64,000 nucleotides of DNA from Candidatus Zixiibacteriota bacterium (GTDB lineage: Bacteria > Zixibacteria > MSB-5A5 > JAABVY01). The position numbers were made by a program, and so were the translations under genes. The notes under the pieces were generated by a model. The model saw nothing but the letters and a program-made list of their open reading frames with translations, was not told where the DNA came from and did not search any database. Location: contig DSEQ01000034.1 in the NCBI GenBank assembly GCA_011056555.1, positions 11-64,010 of the forward strand. Reading direction: 5' to 3'. Positions 15,365 to 63,505 of the stretch are shown here, piece by piece. Positions within the stretch are counted from its first letter, which is position 1. Every line of letters starts with the position of its first letter.

Positions 15365-15380
15365 CGGAGGTTTCGGAGTT

Positions 15381-15881: not shown

Positions 15882-15890
15882 GAGCAGGCT

Positions 15891-16943: not shown

Positions 16944-16966
16944 CTTACACATGGAGGATTTTTATT

Positions 16967-40723: not shown

Positions 40724-40748
40724 AAAAAGCCCGCTCGCGGGCTTTTTT
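40724..40748. terminator. bidirectional rho-independent terminator shared by the convergent rplS operon and the CIS/kinase operon
   Basis: AAAAAGCCCGCtcGCGGGCTTTTTT: A-run/GC stem-loop/T-run symmetric on both strands; the TAA stop of the minus-strand PP2C gene lies inside the T-run. Confidence 0.65.
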
Positions 40749-42105
40749 ATTCCTGTTTGAAATTATCGAGGTCGAGCAGGAGATTGCCGACCCGGAAAGT
40801 CTGGTTCATCCTGGCATACACCAGCCCCTCATCATCGCGCAATTCCAGTATATGATAACCCGGTTCCAGTCCCAGCTGGTCTTTCATAAACTGCGAGACA
40901 GTACCCTGCGGTATCATATCCACATATAAGGTGTGATCGAAGATGGAATCGGGAAAATTATGAAATTTAATGAATACCGTGCCCACAGCCTCGGCTTGAG
41001 CACCGACATTTTCATTATTAGAACCGGTCACCCGGCTCATAAATTCATCCACCGGCGGCCTGACCCCGCCGATATTATAGGCATATGCGAGGTAAGCCAG
41101 GATTGCAATCAATACAATAAATGAAAGCACATACCAGGCAAAGGCGCCCTTGCTTTCGGGTTTGTCCCGATAAACGGGAACCGGTCCTGTTATCTGCTCA
41201 CCGGGAGATTTGCTGTCTTCGGTTTCCTGCCTGGAGGCGAATGCCTTTCGCAGGATATCGTCTTCAATCTTTAGCTCCTGGCTCGTTTCCTCGTCCACAG
41301 TCTGCTGTACCAGATCCTTGGAAAAATCGTCCGGGCTCTTGATATCCAGAACCTTAACTACAGCAACAGTAATATTGTCTTCGCCCCCGCTGGCATTGGC
41401 GCGTTCTATCAGCTCTTTGCAGATTTTGTCGAGGCTGGCATTTTCCCTGGATAGCGTCTGGAGAATATTCGCATCGGAAACAAATCCGCTCAGGCCGTCC
41501 GAGCACAGCAGGTACAGATCGCCATCTGCAATCCGATCCTTGCGGATATCCACTTTGACATTCTCCCTTGTTCCCAGAGCCCGGGTAATCACATTTTTAT
41601 TTACAAAGTTTTCGGACTCTTCCTCTGTAAGCTGATTGCTGCTGATAAGCTCATTGACCCAGGAGTGATCGACAGTCAGCTGCTCCAGATTGCCGTTTCG
41701 CAAACGGTATACCCTGCTGTCGCCGACATGGCAGATAATCACATGATCACCGGCCATCTGCACCGTAACGACAGTGGTACCCATGCCGCGCATCTCTTTA
41801 TTGCGTACCGATTGATTGAAAATCCTGCGGCTGGCCAGCCGAATAGCATGTACAAGTATTCTGCTTTCTTCCCCGAAGCCTTTCTCGAGCTGGAGAGTTT
41901 CCGGTATAGGACCGAAATCAGCGGGGGATGCTACCGCGGCCGCAATGGTTTCAGCCGCGAGCTCAGAGGCCACCTCGCCGGCGGCATGACCGCCCATGCC
42001 GTCGCAAACCACCGCCAGATTTTTTTCCTTGAGGAGTTTATAATTATCCTCATTCAGCTCTCGGACCAATCCCACATCAGTGCGGGCTGCAATTTCTAAT
42101 TTCAC
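40747..42105 (-). CDS. membrane-anchored PP2C-family Ser/Thr phosphatase with C-terminal extracytoplasmic domain
   Basis: 452 aa; PP2C motifs (TDVGLVRELNEDNY; VCDGMGGHAAGEVAS; VGDSRVYRL; CSDGLSGFV; GGEDNITVAVV), then TM (AFAWYVLSFIVLIAILAYLAYAY), then ~110-aa C-terminal domain; GTG start. Confidence 0.85.
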   Translation of the reverse strand: MKLEIAARTDVGLVRELNEDNYKLLKEKNLAVVCDGMGGHAAGEVASELAAETIAAAVASPADFGPIPETLQLEKGFGEESRILVHAIRLASRRIFNQSVRNKEMRGMGTTVVTVQMAGDHVIICHVGDSRVYRLRNGNLEQLTVDHSWVNELISSNQLTEEESENFVNKNVITRALGTRENVKVDIRKDRIADGDLYLLCSDGLSGFVSDANILQTLSRENASLDKICKELIERANASGGEDNITVAVVKVLDIKSPDDFSKDLVQQTVDEETSQELKIEDDILRKAFASRQETEDSKSPGEQITGPVPVYRDKPESKGAFAWYVLSFIVLIAILAYLAYAYNIGGVRPPVDEFMSRVTGSNNENVGAQAEAVGTVFIKFHNFPDSIFDHTLYVDMIPQGTVSQFMKDQLGLEPGYHILELRDDEGLVYARMNQTFRVGNLLLDLDNFKQE

Positions 42106-42111
42106 AAATTC

Positions 42112-43422
42112 CTACTTAAAAATGATAATTAGTACAATAATAATCAGCAATATTCCAATAGCGCCCAGAAGATAAGGCAAATACAAATTTTTTCCAATGC
42201 TTGTAACGGCACCTTTACCGGCATCCGGCGGTGAAAAATCGAAATGGCCTTCCTCGGCCACACGAAAAATCGTGCTCTCCTTAACCGACGATATTTCCAC
42301 GACATCGCCGATATTCACAGGCAGCACTTCATCGGTCGAAATAGTCCGGCCATTGAGCCTGGTACGCATCTGGCTGGCCCTGTCAGATAAATAAAACCGG
42401 CCATCCTTAAACTCTATTTCTGCGTGTTTTCGGGATATACTCTTATCAATCTCGCCTTTACTGTCGCTCCTGATGACTATATCGTTTTGCTTGCGATCCC
42501 GGCCGATGCGGTTTATATCTTTTTTCAGCCTGAATTTTTCCCCTTTCAAGGGCCCGCTGATCGACAGAAGATAAATATCGAGTTCACGTTGGGGTGATAT
42601 CTGCTCGGGCTCTGAGGGCTGTTCCCGGGTAGATGGCAGAATTTTTGTCTTATGCACATCATCACTTTTTCTCTGGCTCTGAGGAGGTTCAGGCGTATCT
42701 GCCGGTTTCGGCACTTCCTTTCGAGGAGGAGGCGCGGGCGGTTCCGGCTCGGTTTTTCTATCTGGCGGTCCTGGTGATTCGGGCTCTGGTTTTGCCTCCG
42801 CGCCTTTCTGCGGAGGTGCAGGCTCGGGCGCAGGTGCGGGAGGTTCCGGTTCCTTTTCGACTTTTTCAGGGGCGGAATCCTCCAGATCAGGATCTATCGT
42901 AATCTCTTCTGTCTTCATATGATGAATATCTTCTCCGGACGACTCTTCAGTAAGCTTTGCAGGCTCGGGAGATTCGGGCTCCGGCGGCTTTGCCGGAACC
43001 TCCGGCGGCTTTTCATCCGGCAGCTCAGGCTTTTTCTCAGCCGGCAGATCTTCCTCTGTCTTGGCCGGGGGCCCCGATTTTTCTTCCGGCTTGAAGTCAG
43101 GTGCTTTTCCTTTCGCCGGCATTTCATCAGGCAGAACATTCAGGATCAGGTAATAGTCCTCGATCCTTATAGTATCGCCGTCCTCGAGCTTCACATCACC
43201 CTCCACCCTTTCTTCTGTAACAAACACAGGAGGCAGGTGAGTCATGAGCTGCAGGTGGAAACCGTCGTCTCTCAAGACCAGCCTGGCCAGTTCGGGGGCA
43301 ATGGAGGGGTCCTCTATCGGCACATCGCATCCAGTTGAACAGCCGATGGTAATTTCATCCTTGTAAGGCAGATTATAGGTCTTGATAATCTCAGGGCCCT
43401 TCTGTACAATTATTTTAGGCAT
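42112..43422 (-). CDS. FHA-domain protein with Pro/Glu-rich repeat linker and C-terminal tail anchor
   Basis: 436 aa; degenerate FHA-like N-terminus (ITIGCSTGCDVPIED..), long PEP/PAP-rich low-complexity region, canonical FHA (RIGRDRKQNDIVIRSD..ISRKHAEIEFKDGRFYLSD..S.NGT), terminal TM (LLGAIGILLIIIVLIIIF). Confidence 0.75.
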   Translation of the reverse strand: MPKIIVQKGPEIIKTYNLPYKDEITIGCSTGCDVPIEDPSIAPELARLVLRDDGFHLQLMTHLPPVFVTEERVEGDVKLEDGDTIRIEDYYLILNVLPDEMPAKGKAPDFKPEEKSGPPAKTEEDLPAEKKPELPDEKPPEVPAKPPEPESPEPAKLTEESSGEDIHHMKTEEITIDPDLEDSAPEKVEKEPEPPAPAPEPAPPQKGAEAKPEPESPGPPDRKTEPEPPAPPPRKEVPKPADTPEPPQSQRKSDDVHKTKILPSTREQPSEPEQISPQRELDIYLLSISGPLKGEKFRLKKDINRIGRDRKQNDIVIRSDSKGEIDKSISRKHAEIEFKDGRFYLSDRASQMRTRLNGRTISTDEVLPVNIGDVVEISSVKESTIFRVAEEGHFDFSPPDAGKGAVTSIGKNLYLPYLLGAIGILLIIIVLIIIFK

Positions 43423-46056
43423 CTACTCCCTCTTCAGCTCTTCCTCAATTTTATATTCATTATTTTCCTTAATGCTCTTGCCGTCATCCCAGCCCTTATA
43501 ACCGTCCTTGTCGGCAATTAGCTTATATTTTCCGGCCTCGAGCTGAACTGCAAGCTGGCCGAATTCATTCGTCGTGCCCAGGTATATTCTCTTTCTATCA
43601 TCTTTTCTTTCGGCAAGAATGTTGACACCCTCCAGCGGCTCATCGCTATCATCATCCTTGAAAACGAAAATGAGCATGGCCTTTTCCATAACCTCCTCGG
43701 GCTCTTCGACCGGCTCTCCCTCATCCTCCTCCTCTCCGACCTTACGCATAACAGCCTTCAACTCCGTCTGATTTACACCGATCACAAAACTGGTATCAAT
43801 ATAATCCCGCTTACTGAGATATATTCTGTGCTCCACACCTGTCAAAAGCAAATTTATCGGCGTCTTGTCGGCCGATTCGGAAAGACGTCCCTCACTTTCA
43901 ATTTTGGTGATTCGCGCTCCAATATCTCCGCCTTTCGGATTGGAGGCTGCAACCGCGGTGACAGCGACCTCGCGATACAATTCATAAAATAGCGAACCCT
44001 GGAAATTCTCGTCGATATCAACCAACCTGACCTTGTCTTCAAATCCGGACTTTACCAGCCTGATTCTGGCTTGACCAAAAGGTATCATGACATTATCGGG
44101 CGTCTGGCCCACAGGTTCATCCTGGTCCTCCAGATAAATATCGGCTCCCTGGGGTTTACTGGAAATTTTTATATTCTTCCGAAATCTCCCGGTGATCTCC
44201 GGAAGTTCATTCTCTTTATTGTAACTATAATCCCAGAGGCCTTCATTATCAGTCTTGAAATCTCCCGAGGAGACATTGAAGCCGGCAAGTCTCAGGGCGC
44301 CTGAAGCCTTTTCATGCTCGAGCCGAATATCAACGCTATCAGTTAAAGGTATCGGAACCAGAGCAGGGGTAACCGCGGGGTAAAGATTGTTATCCACAAA
44401 TATTGATGCTCCCTGCGGGATGGAATTGATACGTGCCTCTCGCTTCAAAACGAAATTAGGAAAGGTAATTTGATCGCCCTCTTTCAGGACGAACTGGGTA
44501 TCAATCGGGCTGGCCTTGTCCATTTCGATACGGAGATTGTACTGTCCTGCGTCGAGCTGATTGATCTGCAACGGAGTTTTTCCCGACTTTTCTCCATTAA
44601 GAAAAACAACCGCACCTTCCGGAACAGAATTTATCCATACCGCATATTCCCCGGAAGGGCCGCTGCTTCCACCTGCGCCCCCGATCAAAGTGCCGATTAT
44701 AAGAAGCAGAATTAAAATTATTATTGCACCGCCGCCATACACCCAGATTCTTTTGTCGGCGCGCTTGAGGGCGGCCAGGGATGACTGAAAGTCGAAAGCG
44801 GGCTTCTTCCTCTTGAATGACGGAACTTCCCTGACTACCGTTTTAGCATCGGCGCTCTCGCTTGAATATATTGATGTTCTGGCTTCGTCTCCTGAGGTGT
44901 CATGGATAACAGTCCGGGCCTCTTCCGACGTACTATCATAGATTACCGTTTTGGCTTCTTCCGGTTCAGCTGCCGGTTCTCTTTTCGGCTTCTGCTCCCC
45001 TGTCTTCCGTTCTTCAGGCGGCCCGGGTTTCGGCCCCACAGGTTCAGGTTCCGGCGGAGTACTCAGGATTTGTGTTTTGATTTTCTGCTGGCTGTTCTGC
45101 CGGGTTGCTTTTTCCTCAGCTTCCACAGGCTCCTTAACATACATGGAATGCACCAATCGTGACAGATCCGAGGTGGGCTCACCCGGAAAATATTTTCGCG
45201 AGAGATGGTACAGGTCGACATACATTTCATTGGCTGACTTATACCTCTCAGACCTGTCTTTCTTCAGGGCCTGACGGATCACATCAGAACAACCCTCGGG
45301 CAGATCGACAGTTTCCAGGGGTGCAAAATCAATTTGCCCCGAGGTAATCTTTTTCATAACCGTGAAATCCGAATCGCCCGAAAAGAGTTCTTCACCGGTG
45401 CACATCTCGTAAAAAACCGAACCAAGCGAGAAAATATCGCTCTGGCGTGTAGCTTCTTTACCCTCCAGCTGCTCGGGAGACATGTAGGCCACCTTACCTT
45501 TGACGAAACCGGTTTGGGTCTTCTGCACTATACGGTTGCGGGCCTTGGCAATGCCGAAATCAATCAGCTTGACCGAGCCCTCCACGGTGAGCATGATATT
45601 CGAGGGCGAGATATCCCTGTGCACGATATTCAATGGCTGCCCGGATTTTCTATCCTTGAGGTTATGCGCATATTCGAGCGCTTTGCAGATTTCGCTAATA
45701 ATGTGCATGGCCATGTTTTTCGGCATGGTCTCGTTGCGATCGTTATAGTAATCGATCACCTCGCGCAGATCGACGCCTTCGATAAACTGCATGATTATAA
45801 AGACGCGATCATCGGGAGTTTTCCTGAGACTGTAAACCTGTACTATATTGGGATGGTTAAGGCGGGCTGTATTGACGGCCTCGTCGATGAACATATCGAC
45901 ATACTGCTTCTCACCCAGCAGAGATTTAACAACTTCCTTTATCGCAACGGGACGATCGAGAGTCAAATCCCAACCGTAATATATAGTGCCGAAACCTCCC
46001 GCTTTGATCTCGCGGATGATTTCATACTGCTCATCTATAATCCTGCGCGCGCTCAT
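43423..46056 (-). CDS. Hanks-type Ser/Thr protein kinase with TM segment and extracytoplasmic PEGA repeats
   Basis: 877 aa; kinase subdomains (GGFGTIY..VAIK; HRDISPSNIML; DFGIAK; SPE), Pro-rich linker, TM (IWVYGGGAIIILILLLIIGTLIGG), then at least 3 PEGA-like repeats (INSVPEGAVVFLNGEKSGKTP; INSIPQGASIFVDN; SSKPQGADIYLEDQ). Confidence 0.9.
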   Translation of the reverse strand: MSARRIIDEQYEIIREIKAGGFGTIYYGWDLTLDRPVAIKEVVKSLLGEKQYVDMFIDEAVNTARLNHPNIVQVYSLRKTPDDRVFIIMQFIEGVDLREVIDYYNDRNETMPKNMAMHIISEICKALEYAHNLKDRKSGQPLNIVHRDISPSNIMLTVEGSVKLIDFGIAKARNRIVQKTQTGFVKGKVAYMSPEQLEGKEATRQSDIFSLGSVFYEMCTGEELFSGDSDFTVMKKITSGQIDFAPLETVDLPEGCSDVIRQALKKDRSERYKSANEMYVDLYHLSRKYFPGEPTSDLSRLVHSMYVKEPVEAEEKATRQNSQQKIKTQILSTPPEPEPVGPKPGPPEERKTGEQKPKREPAAEPEEAKTVIYDSTSEEARTVIHDTSGDEARTSIYSSESADAKTVVREVPSFKRKKPAFDFQSSLAALKRADKRIWVYGGGAIIILILLLIIGTLIGGAGGSSGPSGEYAVWINSVPEGAVVFLNGEKSGKTPLQINQLDAGQYNLRIEMDKASPIDTQFVLKEGDQITFPNFVLKREARINSIPQGASIFVDNNLYPAVTPALVPIPLTDSVDIRLEHEKASGALRLAGFNVSSGDFKTDNEGLWDYSYNKENELPEITGRFRKNIKISSKPQGADIYLEDQDEPVGQTPDNVMIPFGQARIRLVKSGFEDKVRLVDIDENFQGSLFYELYREVAVTAVAASNPKGGDIGARITKIESEGRLSESADKTPINLLLTGVEHRIYLSKRDYIDTSFVIGVNQTELKAVMRKVGEEEDEGEPVEEPEEVMEKAMLIFVFKDDDSDEPLEGVNILAERKDDRKRIYLGTTNEFGQLAVQLEAGKYKLIADKDGYKGWDDGKSIKENNEYKIEEELKRE

Positions 46057-47480
46057 TTTTTCTCCGGCGCCTCCGAAAATCCAAATTTAACCGGATCGGT
46101 GGCAATAATCATCGCCGCCATTATCTTGGGAACATACTCCACCGTCTCATTGTGCAACATGTCATTTTTCACAAGATACCAGAATCTATTTTGCTCGATC
46201 ACATCCATCCTCATCAGGGCATTCCTGATTCTCCCCAGGCCTGTGTTGTAGGATGCCATAGCCAGCATATAAGAGTTATACAAATTATATAATTGTTTAA
46301 TATATTTACAAGCAGCTTCGGTGGATTTTTTCGCATTAACTCGTTCATCCATATCATTATTCACGGTCAGGCCGAAATCTCGTGCGGTTGCCGGCATAAA
46401 CTGCCAGAGCCCGCGGGCGCCGGCGGGGGATGTGGCTGTGCTGTCGTAGCCGGATTCCACGAATGCCAGATAAGCGAACTCTTCGGGCAAACCCGCACCC
46501 CTCAACATGCGCCGCACCATGCCCATATGCATCTCCGACCTTTCCAGCGAGCGTTCAAACCAGCCGCGCAAATTGCCTGTGAACTTATCCACATATTTTA
46601 CGGTATTCTCGACGAATATCAAGGGTATTTCATTCTGCGGATCGCCCAGATCCTTCGAAAGCCTTATCAAGCGGTAGCTGACATATTCCTGCAGGGTCTG
46701 CCGCGCGAGGCTTCTTTTCTCTTCCCATGGTTGATAGACATAACGGTATCCGGCCCCTGCCAAAAGAACGACAAATATGATCGGCAGCAGTACCTTCAGC
46801 AGCCTGGTGAATAGAGGACGGCGGAATTTGGCCCCCTCACCGATTCCAATTTGCGGCCCCTTTTCTCCGATCATGATGCTGTCGCCGAATTTCAAAGCGG
46901 CGGTGGTAATTCTCTCGCCATTTACATAAGTGCCATTGGTAGAATCCAGATCCTTTATGGATATTGTCGGCGGAATATAATTTATTTCGGCATGTATCCG
47001 CGAGACCATGGGCATATCCAGAGTTAGATCGCAGGCTGAATCCCGCCCGATCTCTATTCTACCGGGCAGAAACTCATAAGATTCCCCGCCGTCAACCTTC
47101 AGAAGCAGTTTTTTGGAAACTGCCTGAACCATCTGCGTCCTGTCAGCAGAACTTCTTTTTCGCGGTTTCTCGGATCGCCCGCTTTCACTGAATGTGACTT
47201 CAATCTCCGGACCGCCCTGGCCGAAGCTTACATGATCGCCAGATGATACAAATCCGGAATTATGATGATTGCCGTTTACAAAAGTGCCGTTGGAAGAACC
47301 CAGGTCGGAAAGATAGAGGCCCTCCGCCTTGACAGTGAACCTGCAGTGCTCGTAAGATACTATATCAGAATTAATGGACAGGTCGGCATCCTCCGACCTG
47401 CCAACTAATACACTGGATTGATTAAATTTAAGTCGTTTTCCTGTATTTTCACCGGATATAAATTCAAATGCTATCTCCAA
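46053..47480 (-). CDS. tandem-FHA protein fused through a TM segment to a periplasmic SLT lytic transglycosylase domain
   Basis: 475 aa; two FHA domains (VLVGRSEDADLSI..SYEHCRF..LSDLGSSNGTFVNG; IEIGRDSACDLTL..VSRIHAEI..IKDLDSTNGTYVNG), TM (LLKVLLPIIFVVLLAGAGY), SLT motifs (AFVESGYD...GARGLWQFMPATARDFGL); ATGA overlap with the kinase gene; TTG start. Confidence 0.85.
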   Translation of the reverse strand: MEIAFEFISGENTGKRLKFNQSSVLVGRSEDADLSINSDIVSYEHCRFTVKAEGLYLSDLGSSNGTFVNGNHHNSGFVSSGDHVSFGQGGPEIEVTFSESGRSEKPRKRSSADRTQMVQAVSKKLLLKVDGGESYEFLPGRIEIGRDSACDLTLDMPMVSRIHAEINYIPPTISIKDLDSTNGTYVNGERITTAALKFGDSIMIGEKGPQIGIGEGAKFRRPLFTRLLKVLLPIIFVVLLAGAGYRYVYQPWEEKRSLARQTLQEYVSYRLIRLSKDLGDPQNEIPLIFVENTVKYVDKFTGNLRGWFERSLERSEMHMGMVRRMLRGAGLPEEFAYLAFVESGYDSTATSPAGARGLWQFMPATARDFGLTVNNDMDERVNAKKSTEAACKYIKQLYNLYNSYMLAMASYNTGLGRIRNALMRMDVIEQNRFWYLVKNDMLHNETVEYVPKIMAAMIIATDPVKFGFSEAPEKK

Positions 47481-47490
47481 CTCAATTCAC

Positions 47491-49707
47491 CTATCCAGTC
47501 TTAAAAATTAAGTCGATTTGACCTATAGAAATCACATCGTTATTGATCAGAACCCTTCGAGTTATCCTGTTCTTGTTAACCATCGTGCCATTGGTGGAAC
47601 CCTGGTCGATCAGCTCGTACTTGCCTCCAGAGTATTCGATGGTTGCATGATTGCGCGATACCCCCTCGGAAGGCAGGTGAATGTCATTTGCTTTGTCGGC
47701 TCCGATTTTATTGGTTCCTTTCATAAGGTGAAATTCATGCTGGGGAGCATCGCCGGATTTGACCTCCAGCATGGCTTCCCCTATCTGAGCCTTCTTGCCC
47801 TTCTTCGACGCGGCCACAATTATTATAATGATAATCAGCAGAATAACCACGATAAGGACTATCAGCAGGATCAGGCCGTACTTCTCAAGGAAGCTCTCAC
47901 CTTTTATAGCCACTTCCTCACCGCTGGGTTCGCTGTACTCGTGGCTGCTGGTAATGAGATTGCCGTCCATATCAACATCGACGCTGACACTAATTTCACC
48001 CTCTACAGGAAGGCCGGATACCGCCAGCGCATACTGGCCGCGGATAAGGGCTATCGATCTCCTGAAGAGAAAATAGATCATATCGTCTTTATCAGCAGAG
48101 TAGAAGAAACCGCCGCTGAGATCGGCAATCTTCCTTATCTCCTCCAAAAATTCGGGCGATTTTTCATTGTCATACCCCAGCGTATATATCTGCGGGAGAT
48201 CATGCGACCGCTTATAATCTTCAAGGGTCTTAAAATTGTTGCGGCTCGACTCACCTTTGCTATTAGTGACCACCACAAAGATCGGGTATTTTTCCGCGCC
48301 GGAGGTGTCATAATAATTCAAAGCCTCTAAAACCGCATCATAAAGCGGGGCCTTCTGACCGTTAAACTGGAGATTATTTATTGCCGTCTTCTGCGTCGAA
48401 AAAGATTTTTCCAGAGGCATGGCAAGTTCGATATTATCGGCAAATTTGAAAAAGGCAACCCGATGGCGGGATTCGTCCAGCTTGGCCAGAAATTCTGTGG
48501 TCAGCTTTTCCTTTATTAGATTGATCTCATTCTCTTTCAACCCCACAGTGCCGAGCAGGAAGATAAAGTCAATTTCATCCTCCCGAAACTGTGGATGCGC
48601 CTTCTGGATTTCCAACTCCTGTTCCCCGACCTTGATCCCGGGGAAATTTTCAGCTATCAGCCCGCTGACAATATTTCGGTTATCCTCGAAGACAGACAGC
48701 ACAACCAGATTTTGACTGGGAATCACCCGGTTAATGGTTATATTTTCAGTGGAATCAACATTGGACGATATAACCGCCTTTTTGATGATTGTCTCTTTTA
48801 CTGTTTTTTCGGCCACCAGAGAGGGAAGCTCGGTCAGGGCAAATTTCCAGATTGTCTCATTCTTATTATCGAGAACATAACAGACATCCCGCCCGGCAAC
48901 ATCAACAGATATCGGTTCATCAAGCATACCGCCGCTGAACGGCGCCTCCCATTGACCTGACTCGAAATCTGCGGTGAAAAAGACCACCTTTTCCTTCTTA
49001 TCCAGAACAAAGAGCTCACCGTGCTGGTTGACGCACAGGTCAACCGGCTCCCCGATTTCCTTGCCTCCGAATTGCACCGGAATTTCTATAATCAGCGAGC
49101 CTTCACTATTGAAAACCTGCACTGTCTTTTTCTTCTCATCAAGAACGAAGACCCGTCCCTGATGATCGACATCGACAGCAATTGGATCCTCGAAGCCGGC
49201 CCCCTGCAAAGTACCAAGATCCTGTCCGTCTTCATCGAAAATACGGACATTATCTTTGTCCTTATCGGCAACGTAAACGCGGCCGTCACGGGCAACCGTA
49301 ACCGACATGGGCCGACCGAACGTCTTTTCGCCGCCTATCGTGCCCTGCCGCATACCCTCCTGGGTAAAGCGCGAGAGCTCATCACGGTCGCGATCCACCA
49401 CGTACACCAACCCATCGATGCCGATATCGATATCCTGGGGAACCTCGATGTCGTCATCACCAATTGGAATAGACCTCAAATACTGGCCGTTACCTGAAAA
49501 TACCTGCACAAGATTATTGCGGGCCGAGCCGATATATATTTCACCTCCCGGGCCGACATAGATAGCCTTGACATTGGAGACCTCGCTATCACCTGTCCCG
49601 CCGGGCAGTTTTATACGCGGCAGGCTTTCTACTTTAATTGCAAAGGCATTGGAAACAAGAAACAGTGCGGCAACTATGCCCCATAAAATCAAATTCCTTT
49701 TCGACAT
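47491..49707 (-). CDS. signal-peptide NHL-repeat beta-propeller + vWA-like domain, TM, C-terminal cytoplasmic FHA domain
   Basis: 738 aa; signal peptide; at least 5 NHL-like blades (YVVDRDRD..; RVYVADKDKD..; RVFVLDEKKK..; ELFVLDKKEK..; VCYVLDNKNE..); vWA-like segment (FLLGTVGL..VVVTNSKGESS..IYTLGYD); TM (LILLIVLIVVILLIIIIIIV); FHA (KIGADKANDIHL..VSRNHATIEY..LIDQGSTNGTMVN). Confidence 0.75.
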   Translation of the reverse strand: MSKRNLILWGIVAALFLVSNAFAIKVESLPRIKLPGGTGDSEVSNVKAIYVGPGGEIYIGSARNNLVQVFSGNGQYLRSIPIGDDDIEVPQDIDIGIDGLVYVVDRDRDELSRFTQEGMRQGTIGGEKTFGRPMSVTVARDGRVYVADKDKDNVRIFDEDGQDLGTLQGAGFEDPIAVDVDHQGRVFVLDEKKKTVQVFNSEGSLIIEIPVQFGGKEIGEPVDLCVNQHGELFVLDKKEKVVFFTADFESGQWEAPFSGGMLDEPISVDVAGRDVCYVLDNKNETIWKFALTELPSLVAEKTVKETIIKKAVISSNVDSTENITINRVIPSQNLVVLSVFEDNRNIVSGLIAENFPGIKVGEQELEIQKAHPQFREDEIDFIFLLGTVGLKENEINLIKEKLTTEFLAKLDESRHRVAFFKFADNIELAMPLEKSFSTQKTAINNLQFNGQKAPLYDAVLEALNYYDTSGAEKYPIFVVVTNSKGESSRNNFKTLEDYKRSHDLPQIYTLGYDNEKSPEFLEEIRKIADLSGGFFYSADKDDMIYFLFRRSIALIRGQYALAVSGLPVEGEISVSVDVDMDGNLITSSHEYSEPSGEEVAIKGESFLEKYGLILLIVLIVVILLIIIIIIVAASKKGKKAQIGEAMLEVKSGDAPQHEFHLMKGTNKIGADKANDIHLPSEGVSRNHATIEYSGGKYELIDQGSTNGTMVNKNRITRRVLINNDVISIGQIDLIFKTG

Positions 49708-49719
49708 ATCCCCTCCAGC

Positions 49720-50178
49720 TTAGAGGCACTTGAACATCATCTCGGTCTGTCCGATTTTGATGTGATCGTTATCAATCAACTCCCACTCAGTCTGCGGCTC
49801 GCCGTTAACAAAGGTCTTGTTCTTGGAGCCGAGATCATTGATATAAAACGAACCGCCCTCATAGCGGATGGCGCAATGAGGTGAGGAAAGATAATCATCG
49901 TGTACGACTATATCCTCGTTCTGGGTGGGGCCGATCGTATATTTGCGATCATCCAAACGGTAATCCTGTCCTTTGTAGGTACCGTTGATTATAACCAGCC
50001 AGGCCACGACCGGAAGATCCTGCTGGGTTTGTCCGACTCCGACAACCCTGGTCTTTCCTCTTCCGCCTCGAGCATCCACAACCCGGGTTGCCTGAGATTT
50101 CTTCTTATCTCTCTTAGGCATCTTGGGCACATCCTTTCGTGATAATCTAAAAAATCTTCCGAAGATATTGAATCTCAT
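49720..50178 (-). CDS. small FHA-domain protein
   Basis: 152 aa; basic N-terminus then FHA (YTIGPTQNEDIVVHDDYLSSPHCAIRYEGGSFYINDLGSKNKTFVNG). Confidence 0.8.
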   Translation of the reverse strand: MRFNIFGRFFRLSRKDVPKMPKRDKKKSQATRVVDARGGRGKTRVVGVGQTQQDLPVVAWLVIINGTYKGQDYRLDDRKYTIGPTQNEDIVVHDDYLSSPHCAIRYEGGSFYINDLGSKNKTFVNGEPQTEWELIDNDHIKIGQTEMMFKCL

Positions 50179-50205: not shown

Positions 50206-51747
50206 TTACACGACTGTCTGGTAGAACCAGTATCCAAACATATTTACGTCTCTCTCGGCCGAGATTGCAATCTGTTTGACATTCACCTCTTCCTTCTTGA
50301 TAAACTTGCCATTGATGATGTAAGGCATATTCCGCCAGCGATACTTGCGGTCATTGCCGGTAATCTCCCAAACCCCCACTTTTTCGCCATCGACCTCAAT
50401 CTCAGTCTTAAGCCCGCCATAGGCATAATCGATTCTCCGTATCACCAAGACATCCAGCTCCGGCTTCAGATTCTTGATCTTGAACTGCGCGAAGCCCTCC
50501 CAGTGCAGACGGCCGCGGTCGGAAATCCGGGTGCCGTCAGGGAAGAAGAAATTCTGCTTCTGCCTCAGCTCTTCCTTCACTCCTCCCAGCTTGAACTCAT
50601 GTTCCTTCTCGGAAGCATCATCCAGTATATCTATCTTATCAACTAATTTATAGCGCACATTGTCAACCATAATTTCTTCCGGAAATTCCTTGGGCCAGAT
50701 TTTGATCTCATCCATCGACAGGCGTTCGCCTTTAAATTCCTCCAGCTCGCCCTCGACCTCAGCCCTGATTTCTGCCACCCTGGGCGCCAGGAGCTTTTTC
50801 AATGCTCCGGAGGCCTTGGCCTGGTAGATTATCAGGTTATTCAAATCCTCCGAGGTTATATCGGTTGCCGAGGTCAGATTCAGAAGCGCCTGAAGATTAT
50901 CTTTGTATTCGCCGACCTCTTTGCGCTGTGAGAGGTTGGGGGTATTCTCGAGCTCATTGGAAATCTCTTTCTCCAGATCGACGATTATTTTCAGCAGTTT
51001 AAAGGCGTTACGGTAATCGAGCTTCCCGGCAATACTGACCATCTCGGCAGTAATTGCCGACTGGTAGGCCTCCAGAGAGTACTTTAGATCATAAAGTTTG
51101 TTGAGCTGCATAAAGACCAGCTTCATATCATTGTAGACCGCAAAGATGCGGGAGACCACCTCGGGCGAGAGAATCCATCCGAAGGTACCGGCTATGGGCA
51201 CAAAGCGGGCATCGATTTCACCGGTTTCGGGATGTGACGGATCTGCCGGATTTTTGACATCCTTAAGTTCCTCCTCCAGCCGAACTCTGGCGAGTTCGAT
51301 TCCCTCATCAAGCTCGGGCGGATTGGGAAGAATTTCGACCTTGGCTCTTTCGGCAATGCGCTTATGCCCCTTGTATTGCGGATTAGCCTTGTTGGTGATA
51401 AAATCTACCGGTTCATCATAGTATTTCAGGACAACATAGACAACCATGGGAAGCTTATATTTGGACACATCAATAGCAAGGACCTTCGTTTCCCAGAGCA
51501 TGATATCGTTCCCCTGTCCATCGGTAGCATACCCCGGCGCAACTTCAATCGAAAAATCGCCCTTCTCCCTTGCGGTTACTTTCAGCTCGCCCGAAAAGTT
51601 GAGCACAACTCCCGGCGAATGAAAGAGCTGATTGTGCAGCTTATCCTTCTCCCGGGAATAATCGACAAGCAGGTTAAAATCCTCCTCCGAGGCAAAGAAG
51701 CCGCGGAAAAATGATACCCTTTTATATTCCTTACTCTCCTCGGTCAT
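50206..51747 (-). CDS. uncharacterized CIS-associated protein (513 aa) in the tail-fibre/baseplate-wedge position
   Basis: follows the gpI-like gene with a 17-nt overlap; no recognisable motifs; P2-like order V-W-J-I-(H) suggests a fibre or distal baseplate role. Confidence 0.4.
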   Translation of the reverse strand: MTEESKEYKRVSFFRGFFASEEDFNLLVDYSREKDKLHNQLFHSPGVVLNFSGELKVTAREKGDFSIEVAPGYATDGQGNDIMLWETKVLAIDVSKYKLPMVVYVVLKYYDEPVDFITNKANPQYKGHKRIAERAKVEILPNPPELDEGIELARVRLEEELKDVKNPADPSHPETGEIDARFVPIAGTFGWILSPEVVSRIFAVYNDMKLVFMQLNKLYDLKYSLEAYQSAITAEMVSIAGKLDYRNAFKLLKIIVDLEKEISNELENTPNLSQRKEVGEYKDNLQALLNLTSATDITSEDLNNLIIYQAKASGALKKLLAPRVAEIRAEVEGELEEFKGERLSMDEIKIWPKEFPEEIMVDNVRYKLVDKIDILDDASEKEHEFKLGGVKEELRQKQNFFFPDGTRISDRGRLHWEGFAQFKIKNLKPELDVLVIRRIDYAYGGLKTEIEVDGEKVGVWEITGNDRKYRWRNMPYIINGKFIKKEEVNVKQIAISAERDVNMFGYWFYQTVV

Positions 51748-52627
51748 CTTGTTTCCCTTCCTCTATTTCTTCATGAACATTATCCGTTTCACCAACCCAT
51801 GATTCCACGCCGATCATGGAGGCCACACCGACCTGCATGAAGTCGGCCTCCTCGAGCTCGGGCTCGGCGAAGATCATGTAGTAATTTGTATGCGCGGGTT
51901 TTTCCGCCTGTACAATCGCATGAATTTTGCGAATCATCTCAACCGGCGTATCATCGATTGTCTGCGGAATCCTGACTGTAAAGCAATGCGAACGATCTAT
52001 ATAGCCGATTATAATTGAATCTACTCCAATGGTCGAGGACACCCCCACCTGAAAACCGTTAAAGGGCCAGTAATTCTCAATAATCTCCGGGGTGCTTTCA
52101 GTATAAATTTTCAGATATAATGCCAAGCCCCGCGAGGTTCCCCGCAGCTTATATATCTTTACGATATTGGCAATCAATTCGCGTTTCTTGGCCTCATCCC
52201 AGTTTTCATCGAGAACCAGCGCCAGAACCGATGCCAGATAGGGCAGGAATTTATCCGGGGTATTAAACGGCTCGAAATATGTGTGTATATCCCTGATTGT
52301 ACGGTCGATCGGGATTTGCGGATGTTTCAATAACCACAGGAACCGCTTCAGGAACGAGCCCTCGCGCATATCGTATTGACGGTATATATTCGGCAGGAAG
52401 TTGAGATAGCTTTTGCCCGATATCACCAGTCTGATACCCTCCGCCGGCACAGGCTGATCGGCCTGTGGATTCTGGATAATTATCCGGCCCTCGGGCTCCA
52501 GCGATTCCTCAAACTCGATTGTGCGGATTTTTATGCCATCCAGGCGGCACATCTTCTCCGCTTTTTCAATATCGAGCCCGATAAAATTCGGAACTGTCTT
52601 TTCAGCTACTGCGGCTTCAGTAACCAT
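51731..52627 (-). CDS. phage tail protein I (P2 gpI-like) baseplate component with N-terminal PASTA-like domain
   Basis: 298 aa; N-terminal PASTA-like fold (VPNFIGLDIEKAEKMCRLDGIKI..GRIIIQNPQADQPVPAEGIRLVISG); gpI-family core (FLPYLASVLALVLDENWDEAKKRELIANIVKIYKLRGTSRGLALYL). Confidence 0.7.
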   Translation of the reverse strand: MVTEAAVAEKTVPNFIGLDIEKAEKMCRLDGIKIRTIEFEESLEPEGRIIIQNPQADQPVPAEGIRLVISGKSYLNFLPNIYRQYDMREGSFLKRFLWLLKHPQIPIDRTIRDIHTYFEPFNTPDKFLPYLASVLALVLDENWDEAKKRELIANIVKIYKLRGTSRGLALYLKIYTESTPEIIENYWPFNGFQVGVSSTIGVDSIIIGYIDRSHCFTVRIPQTIDDTPVEMIRKIHAIVQAEKPAHTNYYMIFAEPELEEADFMQVGVASMIGVESWVGETDNVHEEIEEGKQDDRGE

Positions 52628-56064: not shown

Positions 56065-56460
56065 TTATCCTCCAATCATCACAGTTCCGACCGCGACCAC
56101 AGTTCCGACCGGCAGGTCCGCCGGATCGTTACAGGTCATCGCAGTATCACCCATCCTGGCTGCAGGCTTGCCGTTAATCATTACAGTTGCCGATCCGCGT
56201 ATAATCTTGCCTTTATTTGTCGGGGGCTTTTGGAAAGGTCCGCCCTGGGGGATATGCGGAGGCGTATTCGTGGCTTCGCTCCCCATAACCGCAGCTCCCA
56301 TGTTCATGATGTTCACATCCGTGGAACATCCGCTGTTTATTAGGCCATTGAATGGATGCGGCAAAGGAGTGGGCACTGGCCCTCCCGGGGTAGATATCAA
56401 GATAATATGAATATCCACCGCAACAATCTGATCTCCCATTTTTGCCGCAGGCATTCCCAT
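56065..56460 (-). CDS. PAAR-repeat spike-tip protein
   Basis: 131 aa; PAAR-like motifs (AAKMGD.., GKPAARMGDTAMTCN), Gly/Pro-rich beta-rich small protein immediately downstream of the spike gene. Confidence 0.8.
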   Translation of the reverse strand: MGMPAAKMGDQIVAVDIHIILISTPGGPVPTPLPHPFNGLINSGCSTDVNIMNMGAAVMGSEATNTPPHIPQGGPFQKPPTNKGKIIRGSATVMINGKPAARMGDTAMTCNDPADLPVGTVVAVGTVMIGG

Positions 56461-56479: not shown

Positions 56480-57148
56480 TCAGTTAATATTAACTAATGA
56501 GCCCTTGAGATTCAGGATTCCACTGGCCTTAACATCAATACTGGCACCTTCTATTTTGACTGAGGTTGAACCTTTTAGATTCAAAGTACCGGCATCAACC
56601 GTTACTGATGGGGCTTCCAGTATGATTTCCTGGTTTCCTTTTATATGCACTTTATTTCCCTCAATTGAGACCAGTCCCTCACCGTTCAGGTAGATAGTCG
56701 TCTCGACATCCTCGTTGACCTTGGCCATTATAAAATTAGTCTGAACCGTGTCGTTCTTGTCCACCATCACTATGTATGACCTGTTTTTAGATTTTATCAT
56801 CTTATAAGTATTCTTTTCCATTTCACTCTTCGGCTCGGGCGGATCATCCTGGCCATTCCAGAGCTGACCCAGGACATACGGAAATCGCACATCACCATGT
56901 TCAAAAGCTACCAGCACCTCGGTTCCAACCTCAGGCATAAACCAGGTACCATAGTCCTTACCGGTCTGCAATGTGGCAACTCGCGCCCAATAGCTTTCCT
57001 GGTCATCACCCATCCACGGAAAACTGACTTTTATCCGGCCAAGATCATTGGGATCATCTATATTGGTAACAATTCCAACCACCACCCCGTAAAATTTCGT
57101 ATCCCTTTCTTCTTCCCTGTCTCCTCGCATTTTCGACATCAAAGTCAT
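56480..57148 (-). CDS. gpV/VgrG-like baseplate spike protein (Afp8-like)
   Basis: 222 aa; phage_base_V signature YGVVVGIVTNIDDPNDLGRIKVSFPWM...WARVATLQTGKDYGTWFMPEVGTEVLVAFEHGDVRFPYVLGQLWN. Confidence 0.85.
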   Translation of the reverse strand: MTLMSKMRGDREEERDTKFYGVVVGIVTNIDDPNDLGRIKVSFPWMGDDQESYWARVATLQTGKDYGTWFMPEVGTEVLVAFEHGDVRFPYVLGQLWNGQDDPPEPKSEMEKNTYKMIKSKNRSYIVMVDKNDTVQTNFIMAKVNEDVETTIYLNGEGLVSIEGNKVHIKGNQEIILEAPSVTVDAGTLNLKGSTSVKIEGASIDVKASGILNLKGSLVNIN

Positions 57149-57160
57149 ATCGTTAACTCC

Positions 57161-57781
57161 TTATGTAATGGGTGGTATAACAAGTTCGGTACCCGGCTCG
57201 AGCTTTAGGGGATCCTCGATCCGGTTGTAATCGGCGATCCTGCGCCATTGGCTGGCGTCATTGTATTCCCTGTGAGCAATCAGGCTGAGCGTATCACCCT
57301 TGCGCACAATCCTACGCTTGGCACGGTCGGCCGACTGACGCGGCTGACGCTGCAATTGCTCAAAGGTAGTGGTATATTCCTTGAAGGTAACATCCAGTTT
57401 TGCGCGCACAGGAGTGCCGTCCTCAAGGAACATAATATAGCGTTGGTCAAGTTTTTCAAGCACACCCTTGAACTGGAACTGACCCCACGTGAATAAGCAC
57501 AGGGGCGGGCGATGCTTATCAGGATCGACCATCAATAATGTTTCCACTTTTTGCGTATGTGTTCGCACATCCTCTTTTTGCTCAAACGTATCGAAGAAGA
57601 GTTCCATCGACAGTTCCATCCGCTGACCGGTTGTGAAAGATGCCGCCGGGGCATCAAGGCCCAGTACTCGCTGTTCAGCCCAGGGTGTCCTCTTTTTCAA
57701 TGTGTACTCAGTCGGATTGAAGAGAACATTGAAGGTCTCATTCTTATCGACATTTGTGATTGTAGCCTTCTCAAGAGGCAT
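57161..57781 (-). CDS. LysM-containing tube-initiator/baseplate hub protein (Afp7 / P2 gpX-D-like)
   Basis: 206 aa; N-terminal tube-like domain, C-terminal LysM (RKGDTLSLIAHREYNDASQWRRIADYNRIEDPLKLEPGTELVIP). Confidence 0.8.
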   Translation of the reverse strand: MPLEKATITNVDKNETFNVLFNPTEYTLKKRTPWAEQRVLGLDAPAASFTTGQRMELSMELFFDTFEQKEDVRTHTQKVETLLMVDPDKHRPPLCLFTWGQFQFKGVLEKLDQRYIMFLEDGTPVRAKLDVTFKEYTTTFEQLQRQPRQSADRAKRRIVRKGDTLSLIAHREYNDASQWRRIADYNRIEDPLKLEPGTELVIPPIT

Positions 57782-63481: not shown

Positions 63482-63505
63482 CTCTCGTCCTGTTGTTTAT
63501 TTTTA

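What the first reader, a model, noticed from the sequence alone, without database searches (positions are those of the whole stretch)
51731..52627. Baseplate gpI-like protein carrying an N-terminal PASTA-like domain, a peptidoglycan-recognising baseplate
The first ~65 residues (VPNFIGLDIEKAEKMCRLDGIKIRTIEFEESLEPEGRIIIQNPQADQPVPAEGIRLVISG) follow the PASTA consensus seen three times in the protein at 35490-36266. PASTA domains bind peptidoglycan fragments and beta-lactams and are normally found on PBPs and PknB-type kinases, not on phage or CIS baseplate proteins. Fused to the gpI core, it suggests the baseplate docks on or senses the cell wall. This fits an intracellular or envelope-anchored CIS and the co-encoded SLT enzyme.
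Basis: seen in the sequence. Interest (0 to 1): 0.65.

Follow-up and report, generated by a model that had tools for sequence, protein, structure and literature searches.

The report
PASTA domain on a CIS baseplate adaptor
A phage-tail-like injection machine in a Zixibacteria genome carries a genuine PASTA (cell-wall-sensor type) domain on its baseplate adaptor protein. The fusion is conserved across at least 80 related loci (mostly Myxococcota) and I found no paper describing it, but what the domain binds is still unknown.

Summary
The gene is on the minus strand (51731-52627, 298 aa). Residues 11-71 are a true PASTA domain: Pfam 34.6 bits against a cut-off of 23.2, and the AF2 model matches PknB PASTA3 with TM 0.80 and rmsd 1.8 Å. 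The rest is a Tail_P2_I/TIGR02242 baseplate adaptor.

The fusion is specific to one clade, not general to gpI. It occurs in 79 of the 80 best genomic loci (4 Zixibacteria-type, the rest mostly Myxococcota; 200 candidates encoded a relative). It is absent from Streptomyces Cis12, from phage matches and from sister gpI proteins.

The adaptor looks like TssG. It has two repeated, low-confidence loops and is followed by a 513-aa TssK-like protein with a CBM-like head. Relatives without PASTA keep both loops, so PASTA is not the fibre-docking element. It occupies an exchangeable N-terminal slot that holds nothing, 2×PASTA, FHA or a β-rich domain in relatives.

The "peptidoglycan-recognising baseplate" reading is untested. 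Docking on the producer's own wall is topologically unlikely, because the protein has no signal peptide or TM segment and the host is diderm. PASTA folds do not bind muropeptide by default.

Best reading: an accessory binding module of unknown ligand. It is a new variant of a known kind, of moderate interest. The conserved FHA/kinase/PP2C/SLT membrane genes downstream may matter more.

The parts
51731..52627 (-). Whole gene: PASTA + Tail_P2_I/TssG-like baseplate adaptor, 298 aa
   Evidence: ORF; Pfam PASTA + Tail_P2_I; TIGR02242; 46 homologous clusters
52415..52597 (-). PASTA domain, residues 11-71
   Evidence: Pfam 34.6 bits, above the cut-off. AF2 pLDDT 84-90. Foldseek match to 3ouv TM 0.80, rmsd 1.8 Å. 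P13, G17, A23, G31, Q52, P54 near-invariant, plus lineage-specific E41, S42, Q58
51860..52414 (-). Adaptor core, residues 72-256: conserved LxFLPxIY motif, helical N-terminal region and beta-sheet C-terminal region
   Evidence: TIGR02242 residues 75-184; Tail_P2_I residues 113-206. Foldseek hits to Streptomyces CIS baseplate 9gtp (E 3.8e-7) and to diffocin, phi812 and A-1(L) baseplate chains. phmmer hit to 9gtp_E residues 94-249
52004..52066 (-). Loop 1 (residues 188-208, PFNGFQVGVSSTIGVDSIIIG): candidate TssG-type fibre-binding loop
   Evidence: pLDDT below 50 over residues 191-206. 10 of 17 residues identical to loop 2. Family consensus PFkGFRiGv.stiGiDSVILP. TssG loop mechanism from PMC6300606
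51788..51850 (-). Loop 2 (residues 260-280, EADFMQVGVASMIGVESWVGE): second candidate fibre-binding loop
   Evidence: pLDDT below 50 from residue 259. Internal repeat of loop 1. Conserved as LREFf.IG.rSGIGiGaEVV. Also present in the PASTA-less relatives P0212 and P0221
51734..51787 (-). Acidic disordered C-terminal tail, residues 281-298; replaced by long low-complexity tails in some relatives
   Evidence: pLDDT about 30; variable tails in P0014-18, P0024 and several Myxococcota loci
50206..51747 (-). TssK-like fibre / receptor-binding protein, 513 aa: shoulder (1-190), helical neck (195-332), CBM6/35-like beta-sandwich head (340-513). Overlaps the adaptor gene by 17 nt
   Evidence: AF2 pLDDT 81.7. 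Foldseek hits to TssK 5y0e (E 4e-6), 6n38 and 5mwn, and to CBM6/35 modules. Present in 54 of 54 loci with enough flank. N-terminal 16 residues highly conserved. eBAP3/TssK parallel in PMC12923769
52628..55663 (-). gpJ/TssF-like baseplate wedge protein, 1011 aa
   Evidence: Baseplate_J 86 bits and a T6SS_TssF N-terminal hit at 31 bits; TIGR02243 349 bits
55663..56064 (-). gp25/TssE-like sheath initiator
   Evidence: GPW_gp25 85.6 bits
56065..62519 (-). Rest of the visible CIS structural operon: PAAR (56065-56460), gpV spike (56480-57148), tube-initiator+LysM (57161-57781), 847-aa protein in the tape-measure position (57781-60324), tube (60324-60767), sheath (60771-62519)
   Evidence: Pfam; collinear in relatives
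40747..50178 (-). Downstream phospho-signalling and envelope module: FHA protein (49720-50178); SP-NHL/(weak VWA)-TM-FHA (47491-49707); FHA-FHA-TM-SLT (46053-47480); Ser/Thr kinase-TM-PEGA (43423-46056); FHA-FHA-TM (42112-43422); PP2C-TM (40747-42105)
   Evidence: Pfam; hydropathy topology; collinear in Zixibacteria-type relatives; FHA genes downstream in 38 of 54 loci

Best explanation
The gene encodes the TssG/gpI-type adaptor of a contractile-injection-system baseplate. A single genuine PASTA domain has been added to its N-terminus, five residues ahead of the conserved LxFLPxIY motif that opens the adaptor core.

Shown here:
- The PASTA sequence and fold.
- The adaptor family assignment.
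- Conservation of the fusion in a Zixibacteria/Myxococcota CIS clade, and its absence outside that clade.
- A cytoplasmic topology (no signal peptide or TM segment).
- Two repeated loops in the C-terminal half.
- A TssK-like gene immediately downstream.

Inferred:
- The adaptor forms the wedge together with the gpJ/TssF-like protein.
- Its two repeated loops each hold a trimer of the TssK-like protein, as TssG loops hold TssK.
- The PASTA domain is not needed for that attachment. It is an accessory binding module in an exchangeable N-terminal slot, displayed six-fold on the baseplate.

My preferred function, held with low confidence: it binds a peptidoglycan-derived ligand (stem peptide, muropeptide or lipid-II-type). 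This would happen only where such a ligand is accessible. That means either the exposed wall of a target cell after particle release, or the cytoplasmic face of the membrane, where precursors and recycled muropeptides occur. It would not bind the intact sacculus of the producer. Binding would supply a second contact that helps position or license the baseplate after the CBM-headed fibres have engaged.
For: - PASTA sequence and fold.
- Adaptor identity: Tail_P2_I and TIGR02242 above cut-off. Best solved relative is the Streptomyces CIS baseplate protein.
- Clade-wide conservation: Pfam PASTA in 79 of the 80 aligned sequences, i.e. the window gene plus 79 of the 80 best genomic loci, out of 200 candidates encoding a relative. 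About 50 of the top 150 representative clusters are full-length single-stretch matches.
- TssG-like design: helical N-terminal half, beta-sheet C-terminal half and two low-pLDDT loops with a shared VGxxSxIGV motif. This matches the published TssG loop-TssK mechanism (PMC6300606).
- Downstream protein folds like TssK plus a CBM-type head. It co-occurs in 54 of 54 loci. Its N-terminal 16 residues are near-invariant.
- An independent paper describes Tail_P2_I adaptors as TssG-like and eBAP3 fibres as TssK-like, attached through loops (PMC12923769).
- PASTA is dispensable for fibre docking: P0212 and P0221 lack PASTA yet keep both loops.
- Slot modularity: 2×PASTA in P0085, FHA plus a Pro-rich linker in P0041-43, and an approximately 85-aa beta-rich domain in P0179. 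All are binding-type modules.
- PASTA Pfam hits also occur at the distal ends of some eCIS fibre genes (Supplementary file 20 of PMC12923769).
- The PASTA domain evolves faster than the core (37% against 48-54% mean pairwise identity), as expected for a peripheral module.
Against: - No binding data exist.
- Muropeptide binding is not intrinsic to PASTA domains (PMC3601408). PBP2B PASTA domains act through protein-protein contacts (PMC7654742).
- The position tentatively equivalent to the binder/non-binder residue (Gly+2, residue 19) is variable: Pro in 24 of 80, Ser in 19 of 80, Asp in the window gene. There is no conserved Arg or Glu. I could not verify that mapping.
- In T6SS the N-terminal stem of TssF2-TssG points toward TssE and the sheath. 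An N-terminal domain may therefore sit on the sheath-proximal rim, away from any target surface.
- AF2 pTM is 0.49, so the placement of PASTA relative to the core is not reliable.
- LysM in baseplate hub proteins is a precedent for a peptidoglycan-binding fold reused structurally (my own knowledge).
- The TssK-like assignment rests on Foldseek alone (TM about 0.3-0.4). There is no sequence-level hit to TssK.
Confidence: 0.4

Rival explanations
1. Structural co-option. The PASTA fold is simply a small alpha/beta brick making protein-protein contacts inside the baseplate, with gpJ, gp25, the first sheath ring, a neighbouring wedge or the TssK-like trimers. It has no peptidoglycan-related ligand.
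For: - A very short linker (SGKSY) ties it to the conserved core motif.
- Copy number and position are fixed in 79 of the 80 aligned sequences.
- Lineage-specific near-invariant residues E41, S42, R/K56 and Q58 suggest a conserved partner surface.
- PASTA domains of PBP2B work through protein-protein interaction.
- The T6SS N-terminal stem contacts TssE and sheath.
- The PASTA, two-loop and TssK-like package is absent together from the closest PASTA-less sisters I could inspect (L081, L082).
Against: - Relatives with the same core and loops do without it (P0212, P0221).
- Others put FHA or a different beta-rich domain, or two PASTAs, in the same place. That is atypical for a load-bearing structural element.
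- It evolves faster than the core.
Confidence: 0.3
2. Intracellular docking and licensing. The CIS is not (only) released. It is tethered at the cytoplasmic face of the inner membrane by the co-encoded FHA-bearing membrane proteins, under Ser/Thr kinase and PP2C control, with the membrane-anchored SLT opening the wall. The N-terminal slot of the adaptor is the tethering point. FHA fills it in some lineages. In this lineage PASTA fills it, binding either a membrane partner or a cytoplasm-accessible peptidoglycan precursor or recycled muropeptide.
For: - The operon continues into FHA, SP-NHL-TM-FHA, FHA-FHA-TM-SLT, STK-TM-PEGA, FHA-FHA-TM and PP2C-TM genes, with predicted cytoplasmic FHA and kinase domains and periplasmic sensor and enzyme domains.
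- This block is collinear in relatives down to 55% identity.
- FHA genes lie downstream in 38 of 54 loci and in more distant members.
- FHA is fused directly to the adaptor in P0041-43.
- The adaptor and wedge are TssG/TssF/TssK-like.
- The nearest solved relative is a cytoplasmic CIS that needs a membrane protein to fire (PMC12237407).
- The tCIS uses an extension of the baseplate protein named Cis12 in that system for membrane contact (PMC8894136).
Against: - The TssK-like protein has a CBM-type head typical of receptor-binding proteins, not a TssL/M-binding head.
- The published catalogue treats such systems as extracellular.
- Kinase genes were detected in only 8 of 54 loci, and no separate SLT hit was detected outside the Zixibacteria-type group.
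- FHA and kinase genes are very abundant in Myxococcota anyway (my own knowledge).
- No cytoplasmic PASTA function is known (my own knowledge).
Confidence: 0.2
3. One reading: the baseplate docks on or senses the producer's own cell wall through the PASTA domain.
For: PASTA domains of PknB and PrkC bind muropeptides (PMC3601408). An SLT is co-encoded.
Against: - The adaptor has no signal peptide or TM segment.
- CIS baseplates assemble in the cytoplasm (established knowledge).
- The host has an outer membrane and a periplasmic wall (BamA, Skp, LpxD). The sacculus is therefore on the other side of the inner membrane.
Confidence: 0.05

Closest known systems
T6SS baseplate adaptor TssG with TssK (E. 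coli EAEC; PDB 6n38; PMC6300606)
   Same: - Small adaptor encoded after the gpJ/TssF-like wedge gene.
- Helical N-terminal region plus a beta-sheet C-terminal domain carrying two protruding hydrophobic loops.
- A shoulder+neck TssK-like trimer-forming protein encoded next to it.
   Different: - No sequence-level TssG or TssK family hit.
- The sheath is a single phage-type protein, and no TssB/C, ClpV, TssA or TssJLM is seen in the window.
- The fibre head is CBM-like.
- TssG has no PASTA domain.
Tail_P2_I-type eCIS adaptors with eBAP3/eBAP4 'shoulder' fibres (PMC12923769, Nat Commun 2026)
   Same: - A Tail_P2_I gene directly upstream of a TssK-like, shoulder-bearing fibre.
- Loop-mediated attachment was proposed there, and a TssG/TssK analogy is noted explicitly.
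- A weak N-terminal match of the 513-aa family to the tCIS crown protein All3314 (E 0.46, not significant).
   Different: - That paper does not mention a PASTA domain on the adaptor. 'PASTA' occurs 0 times in the main text and only as weak Pfam hits on fibre genes in a supplementary table.
- It reports eBAP3 mainly in Bacillota and Actinomycetota. This clade is Zixibacteria/Myxococcota with FHA genes downstream.
Streptomyces coelicolor CIS baseplate protein Cis12 (PDB 9gtp; PMC12237407)
   Same: Best solved sequence and fold relative of the core (E 5.6e-6 by phmmer, E 3.8e-7 by Foldseek). The wedge is built from two Cis11 and one Cis12.
   Different: - 190 aa, with no PASTA domain. The alignment starts at residue 94 of the window protein.
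- No tail-fibre-like component in that system.
- The NCBIfam CIS12 equivalog is not reached (81 against 860 bits).
PASTA domains of PknB/PrkC/StkP kinases and PBP2x/PonA2
   Same: Pfam family membership and fold (TM 0.66-0.80, rmsd 1.7-2.7 Å).
   Different: - Those are extracytoplasmic, follow a TM segment or a transpeptidase domain, and usually come in arrays.
- This one is a single copy at the N-terminus of a cytoplasmically made structural protein with no TM segment or signal peptide.
- Ligand binding is untested.
LysM domains in contractile-tail baseplate hub proteins (P2 gpX, T4 gp53, Afp7; here 57161-57781)
   Same: A fold best known for peptidoglycan binding, built into a baseplate protein. 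The same operon has a CIS_tube+LysM gene.
   Different: LysM is near-universal in contractile baseplates and sits at the hub (my own knowledge). The PASTA domain is clade-specific and sits on the peripheral adaptor.

Membership tests
PASTA domain (PF03793) | Sequence profile match above the curated cut-off | tested here: met
   34.6 bits against 23.2, E 1.9e-8, residues 11-70. 79 of 80 clade members match at E<=0.01
PASTA domain (PF03793) | Small alpha/beta fold: one helix packed on a three-stranded sheet | tested here: met
   AF2 pLDDT 84-90. Foldseek to 3ouv TM 0.80, rmsd 1.8 Å; 2mgv TM 0.78; 5nod TM 0.66
PASTA domain (PF03793) | Usual context: extracytoplasmic, C-terminal to a PBP transpeptidase domain or to the TM segment of a Ser/Thr kinase | tested here: not met
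   N-terminal position on a Tail_P2_I protein; no hydrophobic segment or signal peptide. The kinase in the operon carries PEGA, not PASTA
PASTA domain (PF03793) | Binding of muropeptide, lipid II or beta-lactam | not testable with these tools
   Not an intrinsic property of the fold (PMC3601408). The published binder (Arg/Glu) versus non-binder (Pro) rule (cited in PMC7654742) could not be mapped with certainty. The tentative position (residue 19) is variable
Tail_P2_I / TIGR02242 baseplate adaptor (gpI, TssG-like) | Profile match above the curated cut-offs | tested here: met
   PF09684 41.6 bits against 20.6; TIGR02242 83.1 bits against 51.85
Tail_P2_I / TIGR02242 baseplate adaptor (gpI, TssG-like) | Gene order gp25 - gpJ - adaptor - fibre | tested here: met
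   conserved in related loci
Tail_P2_I / TIGR02242 baseplate adaptor (gpI, TssG-like) | Two extended loops that each bind a TssK-like trimer | tested here: inconclusive
   Two repeated hydrophobic loops with low pLDDT are present and conserved, and a TssK-like partner is encoded next door. Binding itself was not tested
CIS12 family (NCBIfam NF053768, Afp12/Cis12 equivalog) | Full-length equivalog score | tested here: not met
   81.4 bits against a cut-off of 860. Only profile positions 470-573 of 715 are matched
TssK (T6SS baseplate) for the 513-aa neighbour | Shoulder beta-sandwich plus helical neck fold | tested here: met
   Foldseek hits to 5y0e (E 4e-6), 6n38_E and 5mwn, about 350 aligned columns, probability 1.00
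TssK (T6SS baseplate) for the 513-aa neighbour | Sequence-family membership | tested here: not met
   No Pfam, NCBIfam or PDB-profile hit to TssK
Type VI secretion system | TssB/TssC two-protein sheath, ClpV, TssA and the TssJLM membrane complex | tested here: not met
   The sheath is a single 582-aa phage-type protein. None of the others was found among the window ORFs scanned. The operon's upstream end is cut by the window
Extracellular CIS (Afp/PVC-like) | Sheath, tube, spike, PAAR, gp25, gpJ-type wedge and fibre | tested here: met
Extracellular CIS (Afp/PVC-like) | Afp15-type AAA ATPase and Afp16-type cap | tested here: inconclusive
   Not seen in the window, and the region upstream of the sheath runs off the window. 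An AAA gene lies downstream in one distant relative
T6SS-type threonine phosphorylation pathway (PpkA/PppA/Fha) | Ser/Thr kinase, PP2C phosphatase and FHA protein encoded with the contractile apparatus | tested here: met
   Pkinase 155 bits, PP2C_2 55.5 bits, five FHA-bearing ORFs; TagH-type FHA model hit at E 9e-9, below cut-off. The functional link is untested

The most novel reading that the evidence does not exclude
This Zixibacteria/Myxococcota CIS clade could be a phospho-regulated, envelope-coupled contractile system. It would be distinct from both T6SS and free eCIS.

In this reading, membrane proteins with cytoplasmic FHA domains, a Ser/Thr kinase, a PP2C and a membrane-anchored lytic transglycosylase control where and when a TssF/TssG/TssK-like baseplate fires.

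The adaptor's cytoplasmic PASTA domain would act as the sensor or tether. It would read peptidoglycan precursors, or the anhydro-muropeptides that the SLT itself generates. That would be the first PASTA domain working on the cytoplasmic side, and the first direct cell-wall-status input to a CIS baseplate.
Probability: 0.12. Interest if true: 0.85.

Novelty: new variant of a known kind. Interest (0 to 1): 0.5.

Why it matters
Baseplate adaptors decide what a contractile injection system attaches to and when it fires. That makes them the parts people re-engineer for targeted delivery.

This work points to three things:
- A conserved, exchangeable N-terminal slot on the TssG-like adaptor (PASTA, 2×PASTA, FHA, a β-rich domain, or nothing). 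This is a second, unexplored site of specificity besides the fibres.
- If the PASTA domain binds peptidoglycan-type ligands, these machines would have a built-in cell-wall contact or sensor.
- The conserved FHA/kinase/phosphatase/SLT membrane genes would extend T6SS-style post-translational control to a phage-type CIS in little-studied diderm phyla.

If the domain is merely structural, the result is a modest annotation refinement.

Tried and rejected
- Plus-strand reading of the given coordinates: full of stops.
- Recent duplication from the 3×PASTA gene in the same window: rejected (31% identity over 49 aa, E 0.05).
- PASTA as the fibre-docking element: rejected, because PASTA-less relatives keep both loops.
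- PASTA common to all gpI proteins: rejected.
- Phage origin of the fusion: tblastn against 50,697 phage records found only one weak core-only hit. BFVD shows phage gpI-like cores and separate phage PASTA proteins, but no fusion among the top 50.
- Literature: no paper combined 'PASTA domain' with 'contractile injection system' or 'eCIS'. Two papers combining 'PASTA domain' with 'baseplate' were found; one mentions an unrelated PASTA ORF in a Salmonella T6SS island and the other was not opened.
- Sequence test for muropeptide binding: the Calvanese 2017 paper is not held, so the binder/non-binder position could only be guessed. Left as inconclusive.
- Looking upstream of the sheath: the window's own 154-aa protein is not on record, and related loci all start inside the sheath gene. 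The presence of Afp15/16-type genes therefore stays open.
- Representative-library search: the counts are inflated by giant multi-PASTA proteins, so only the single-stretch full-length hits were used.
- Profile search of the 513-aa family against PDB and Pfam: no significant sequence hit.


Full report
**1. The observation**

The coordinates hold a 298-aa ORF, but on the minus strand. The plus strand is closed.

The start is secure. The stop TAA of the preceding gpJ gene abuts the ATG, an AGGTGA lies about 12 nt upstream, and the N-terminus is conserved in homologues.

Pfam places a PASTA domain at residues 11-70 (34.6 bits, cut-off 23.2, E 1.9e-8) and Tail_P2_I at residues 113-206 (41.6 bits). 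NCBIfam adds TIGR02242 at residues 75-184 (83 bits, cut-off 51.85). The 69-residue N-terminal segment alone finds PknB and PrkC PASTA regions in the PDB sequences (E 1.3e-5 and 3e-5).

A template-free AF2 model built on 37 homologues predicts residues 11-71 at pLDDT 84-90. Foldseek superposes that domain on PknB PASTA3 (3ouv: TM 0.80, rmsd 1.8 Å), PonA2, StkP and PrkC PASTA domains. The C-terminal part matches contractile baseplate proteins, with Streptomyces CIS 9gtp best at E 3.8e-7.

The 3×PASTA protein at 35490-36266 is real but only distantly similar.

**2. Distribution**

The protein search found 46 clusters. The closest are Zixibacteria MAG proteins at 94-95% identity, and one partial protein is 100% identical. 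Most carry PF03793 together with PF09684.

A scan of one genome per GTDB species found 200 candidates encoding a relative. The 80 best are four Zixibacteria-type MAGs (two of them labelled Ignavibacteria) and, for the rest, mostly Myxococcota (Polyangia, Kofleriaceae, Haliangium, Nannocystaceae). Their matches begin at query residues 1-12 in nearly all cases, so they include the PASTA domain. Translating those loci and scanning them gave PASTA in 79 of the 80 aligned sequences and Tail_P2_I in 80 of 80.

The fusion is therefore a hallmark of a CIS clade, not a one-off. It is not general to the family:
- The solved Streptomyces Cis12 (190 aa) aligns only from residue 94.
- P0044-46, P0212 and P0221 have no PASTA.
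- Phage collections gave no such fusion.

I found no paper describing it. The 2026 eCIS fibre catalogue never mentions PASTA in its text. NCBI's automatic annotation does call one homologue a 'PASTA domain-containing protein'.

**3. Surroundings**

The gene lies in a minus-strand operon with this order:
- sheath
- tube
- an 847-aa protein in the tape-measure position
- tube-initiator+LysM
- gpV spike
- PAAR
- gp25
- a 1011-aa gpJ with a TssF-like N-terminus
- the PASTA adaptor
- a 513-aa protein with no Pfam hit

The 513-aa protein overlaps the adaptor gene by 17 nt. Its AF2 model (pLDDT 81.7) has an N-terminal beta domain, a helical neck and a C-terminal beta-sandwich. Foldseek matches TssK (5y0e E 4e-6; 6n38; 5mwn) and, for the head, CBM6/35 modules. 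It follows the adaptor in 54 of 54 loci with enough flank, and its first 16 residues are near-invariant.

The adaptor has two low-confidence loops that repeat each other: FQVGVSSTIGVDSIIIG and MQVGVASMIGVESWVGE. Both are conserved across the clade. This is the TssG design. In T6SS, two loops protruding from the C-terminal sheet each insert hydrophobic residues into the N-terminal cavity of a TssK trimer (PMC6300606). The 2026 catalogue independently describes Tail_P2_I adaptors as TssG-like and eBAP3 fibres as TssK-like, attached through loops (PMC12923769).

**4. What the PASTA domain is for**

Three facts constrain it.

(a) It is not the fibre dock. P0212 and P0221 keep both loops without PASTA.

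(b) The N-terminus of this adaptor family is an exchangeable slot. Relatives have nothing there, two PASTA domains (P0085), an FHA domain on a Pro-rich linker (P0041-43), or an unrelated beta-rich domain of about 85 aa (P0179). These are binding modules rather than load-bearing parts. The PASTA domain also evolves faster than the core (37% against 48-54% identity).

(c) Topology. The protein has no signal peptide or TM segment, and the host is diderm (BamA, Skp, LpxD). The assembled baseplate therefore cannot touch the producer's sacculus.

A peptidoglycan-type ligand is reachable only in two places. One is a target cell after release. The other is the cytoplasmic side, as precursors or recycled muropeptides.

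Whether this PASTA binds such ligands cannot be read from sequence. Binding depends on local composition (PMC3601408), and some PASTA domains serve protein-protein contacts (PMC7654742). The tentatively mapped binder position is variable in this clade.

I therefore commit, at about 0.4, to 'accessory binding module, probably for a peptidoglycan-derived ligand, not the own wall'. A purely structural role is the main rival (0.3). Intracellular tethering or licensing is next (0.2).

**5. The downstream module**

After the TssK-like gene come six genes:
- a small FHA protein
- a signal-peptide-NHL-(weak VWA)-TM-FHA protein
- an FHA-FHA-TM-SLT protein
- a Ser/Thr kinase-TM-PEGA protein
- an FHA-FHA-TM protein
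- a PP2C-TM protein

The block is collinear in Zixibacteria-type relatives at 55-80% adaptor identity. FHA membrane proteins also follow the fibre gene in more distant members and in 38 of 54 loci overall.

With FHA fused to the adaptor itself in another lineage, this resembles the T6SS PpkA/PppA/Fha pathway. It suggests the baseplate is coupled to phospho-signalling at the inner membrane. This is unproven and is the basis of the novel case.

**6. Comparison and verdict**

Functionally the protein works like TssG or gpI. By membership:
- It is a Tail_P2_I/TIGR02242 protein.
- It is not a CIS12/Afp12 equivalog (81 against 860 bits).
- The system is not a canonical T6SS (single phage-type sheath, no TssJLM or ClpV seen).

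The PASTA domain is a bona fide family member by sequence and fold, but it sits in an atypical, cytoplasmically synthesised context.

Novelty: a new variant of a known kind. Interest is moderate at 0.5. The architecture is solid and appears undescribed, the mechanism is open, and the surrounding FHA/kinase/SLT coupling could be the more important lead.

Noticed in passing
window 50206-51747 (-): A 513-aa protein with no Pfam hit folds as a TssK-like shoulder+neck with a CBM6/35-like head. It follows the adaptor in 54 of 54 related loci.
   Followed up: yes
window 40747-50178 (-): Six genes with FHA, Ser/Thr kinase, PP2C and SLT domains, five with a predicted TM segment. Predicted topologies put FHA and kinase in the cytoplasm and NHL, SLT and PEGA in the periplasm. 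The block is collinear with the CIS operon in relatives and resembles the T6SS threonine-phosphorylation pathway.
   Followed up: partly
relatives P0041-43 (L082:311-1336), P0085, P0179, P0212, P0221: The N-terminus of this adaptor family is a swap site. It holds FHA plus a Pro-rich linker, two PASTA domains, an unrelated beta-rich domain of about 85 aa, or nothing.
   Followed up: partly
window 56480-57148 (-) versus L001, L003, L004: The gpV spike is only about 50% identical in relatives whose flanking genes are 82-98% identical, yet 97% identical in L002. This looks like a spike cassette exchange.
   Followed up: no
window 57781-60324 (-): The 847-aa protein in the tape-measure position has no family hit. 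It varies from 847 to 1165 aa among relatives, which implies different tube lengths.
   Followed up: no
window 35490-36266 (+): A stand-alone membrane protein with an N-terminal TM segment and three PASTA repeats, but no kinase or PBP domain, directly upstream of ribulose-phosphate 3-epimerase. It matches only the PASTA part of Stk1-type kinases.
   Followed up: partly
window 15330-19426 (+): A UVR-motif protein (McsA-like position), an ATP:guanido phosphotransferase (McsB-like) and a ClpC-type AAA+ protein lie in a row. This is a Firmicutes-style arginine-phosphorylation degradation module in a diderm genome.
   Followed up: no
window 3831-9833 (+): A 2000-aa protein with a SprA_N match (type IX secretion translocon family), fitting an FCB-group organism.
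   Followed up: no
window 62576-63970 (-): Two ORFs just upstream of the sheath have no family hit: a 301-aa putative lipoprotein and a 154-aa protein. The window ends before the operon's start can be seen, so Afp15/16-type genes could not be checked.
   Followed up: partly
representative library hits P0077, P0079, P0087 etc.: Giant proteins of 800-3400 aa with 10-32 tandem PASTA repeats exist in metagenomes. They swamp profile searches seeded with any PASTA-containing query.
   Followed up: no
L006, L008, L010, L018, L019 adaptor ORFs: In several Myxococcota loci the adaptor ORF runs to 570-700 aa, with a long extension after loop 2. P0014-18 and P0024 carry Lys/Glu/Pro/Ala-rich tails. The function is unknown.
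   Followed up: no
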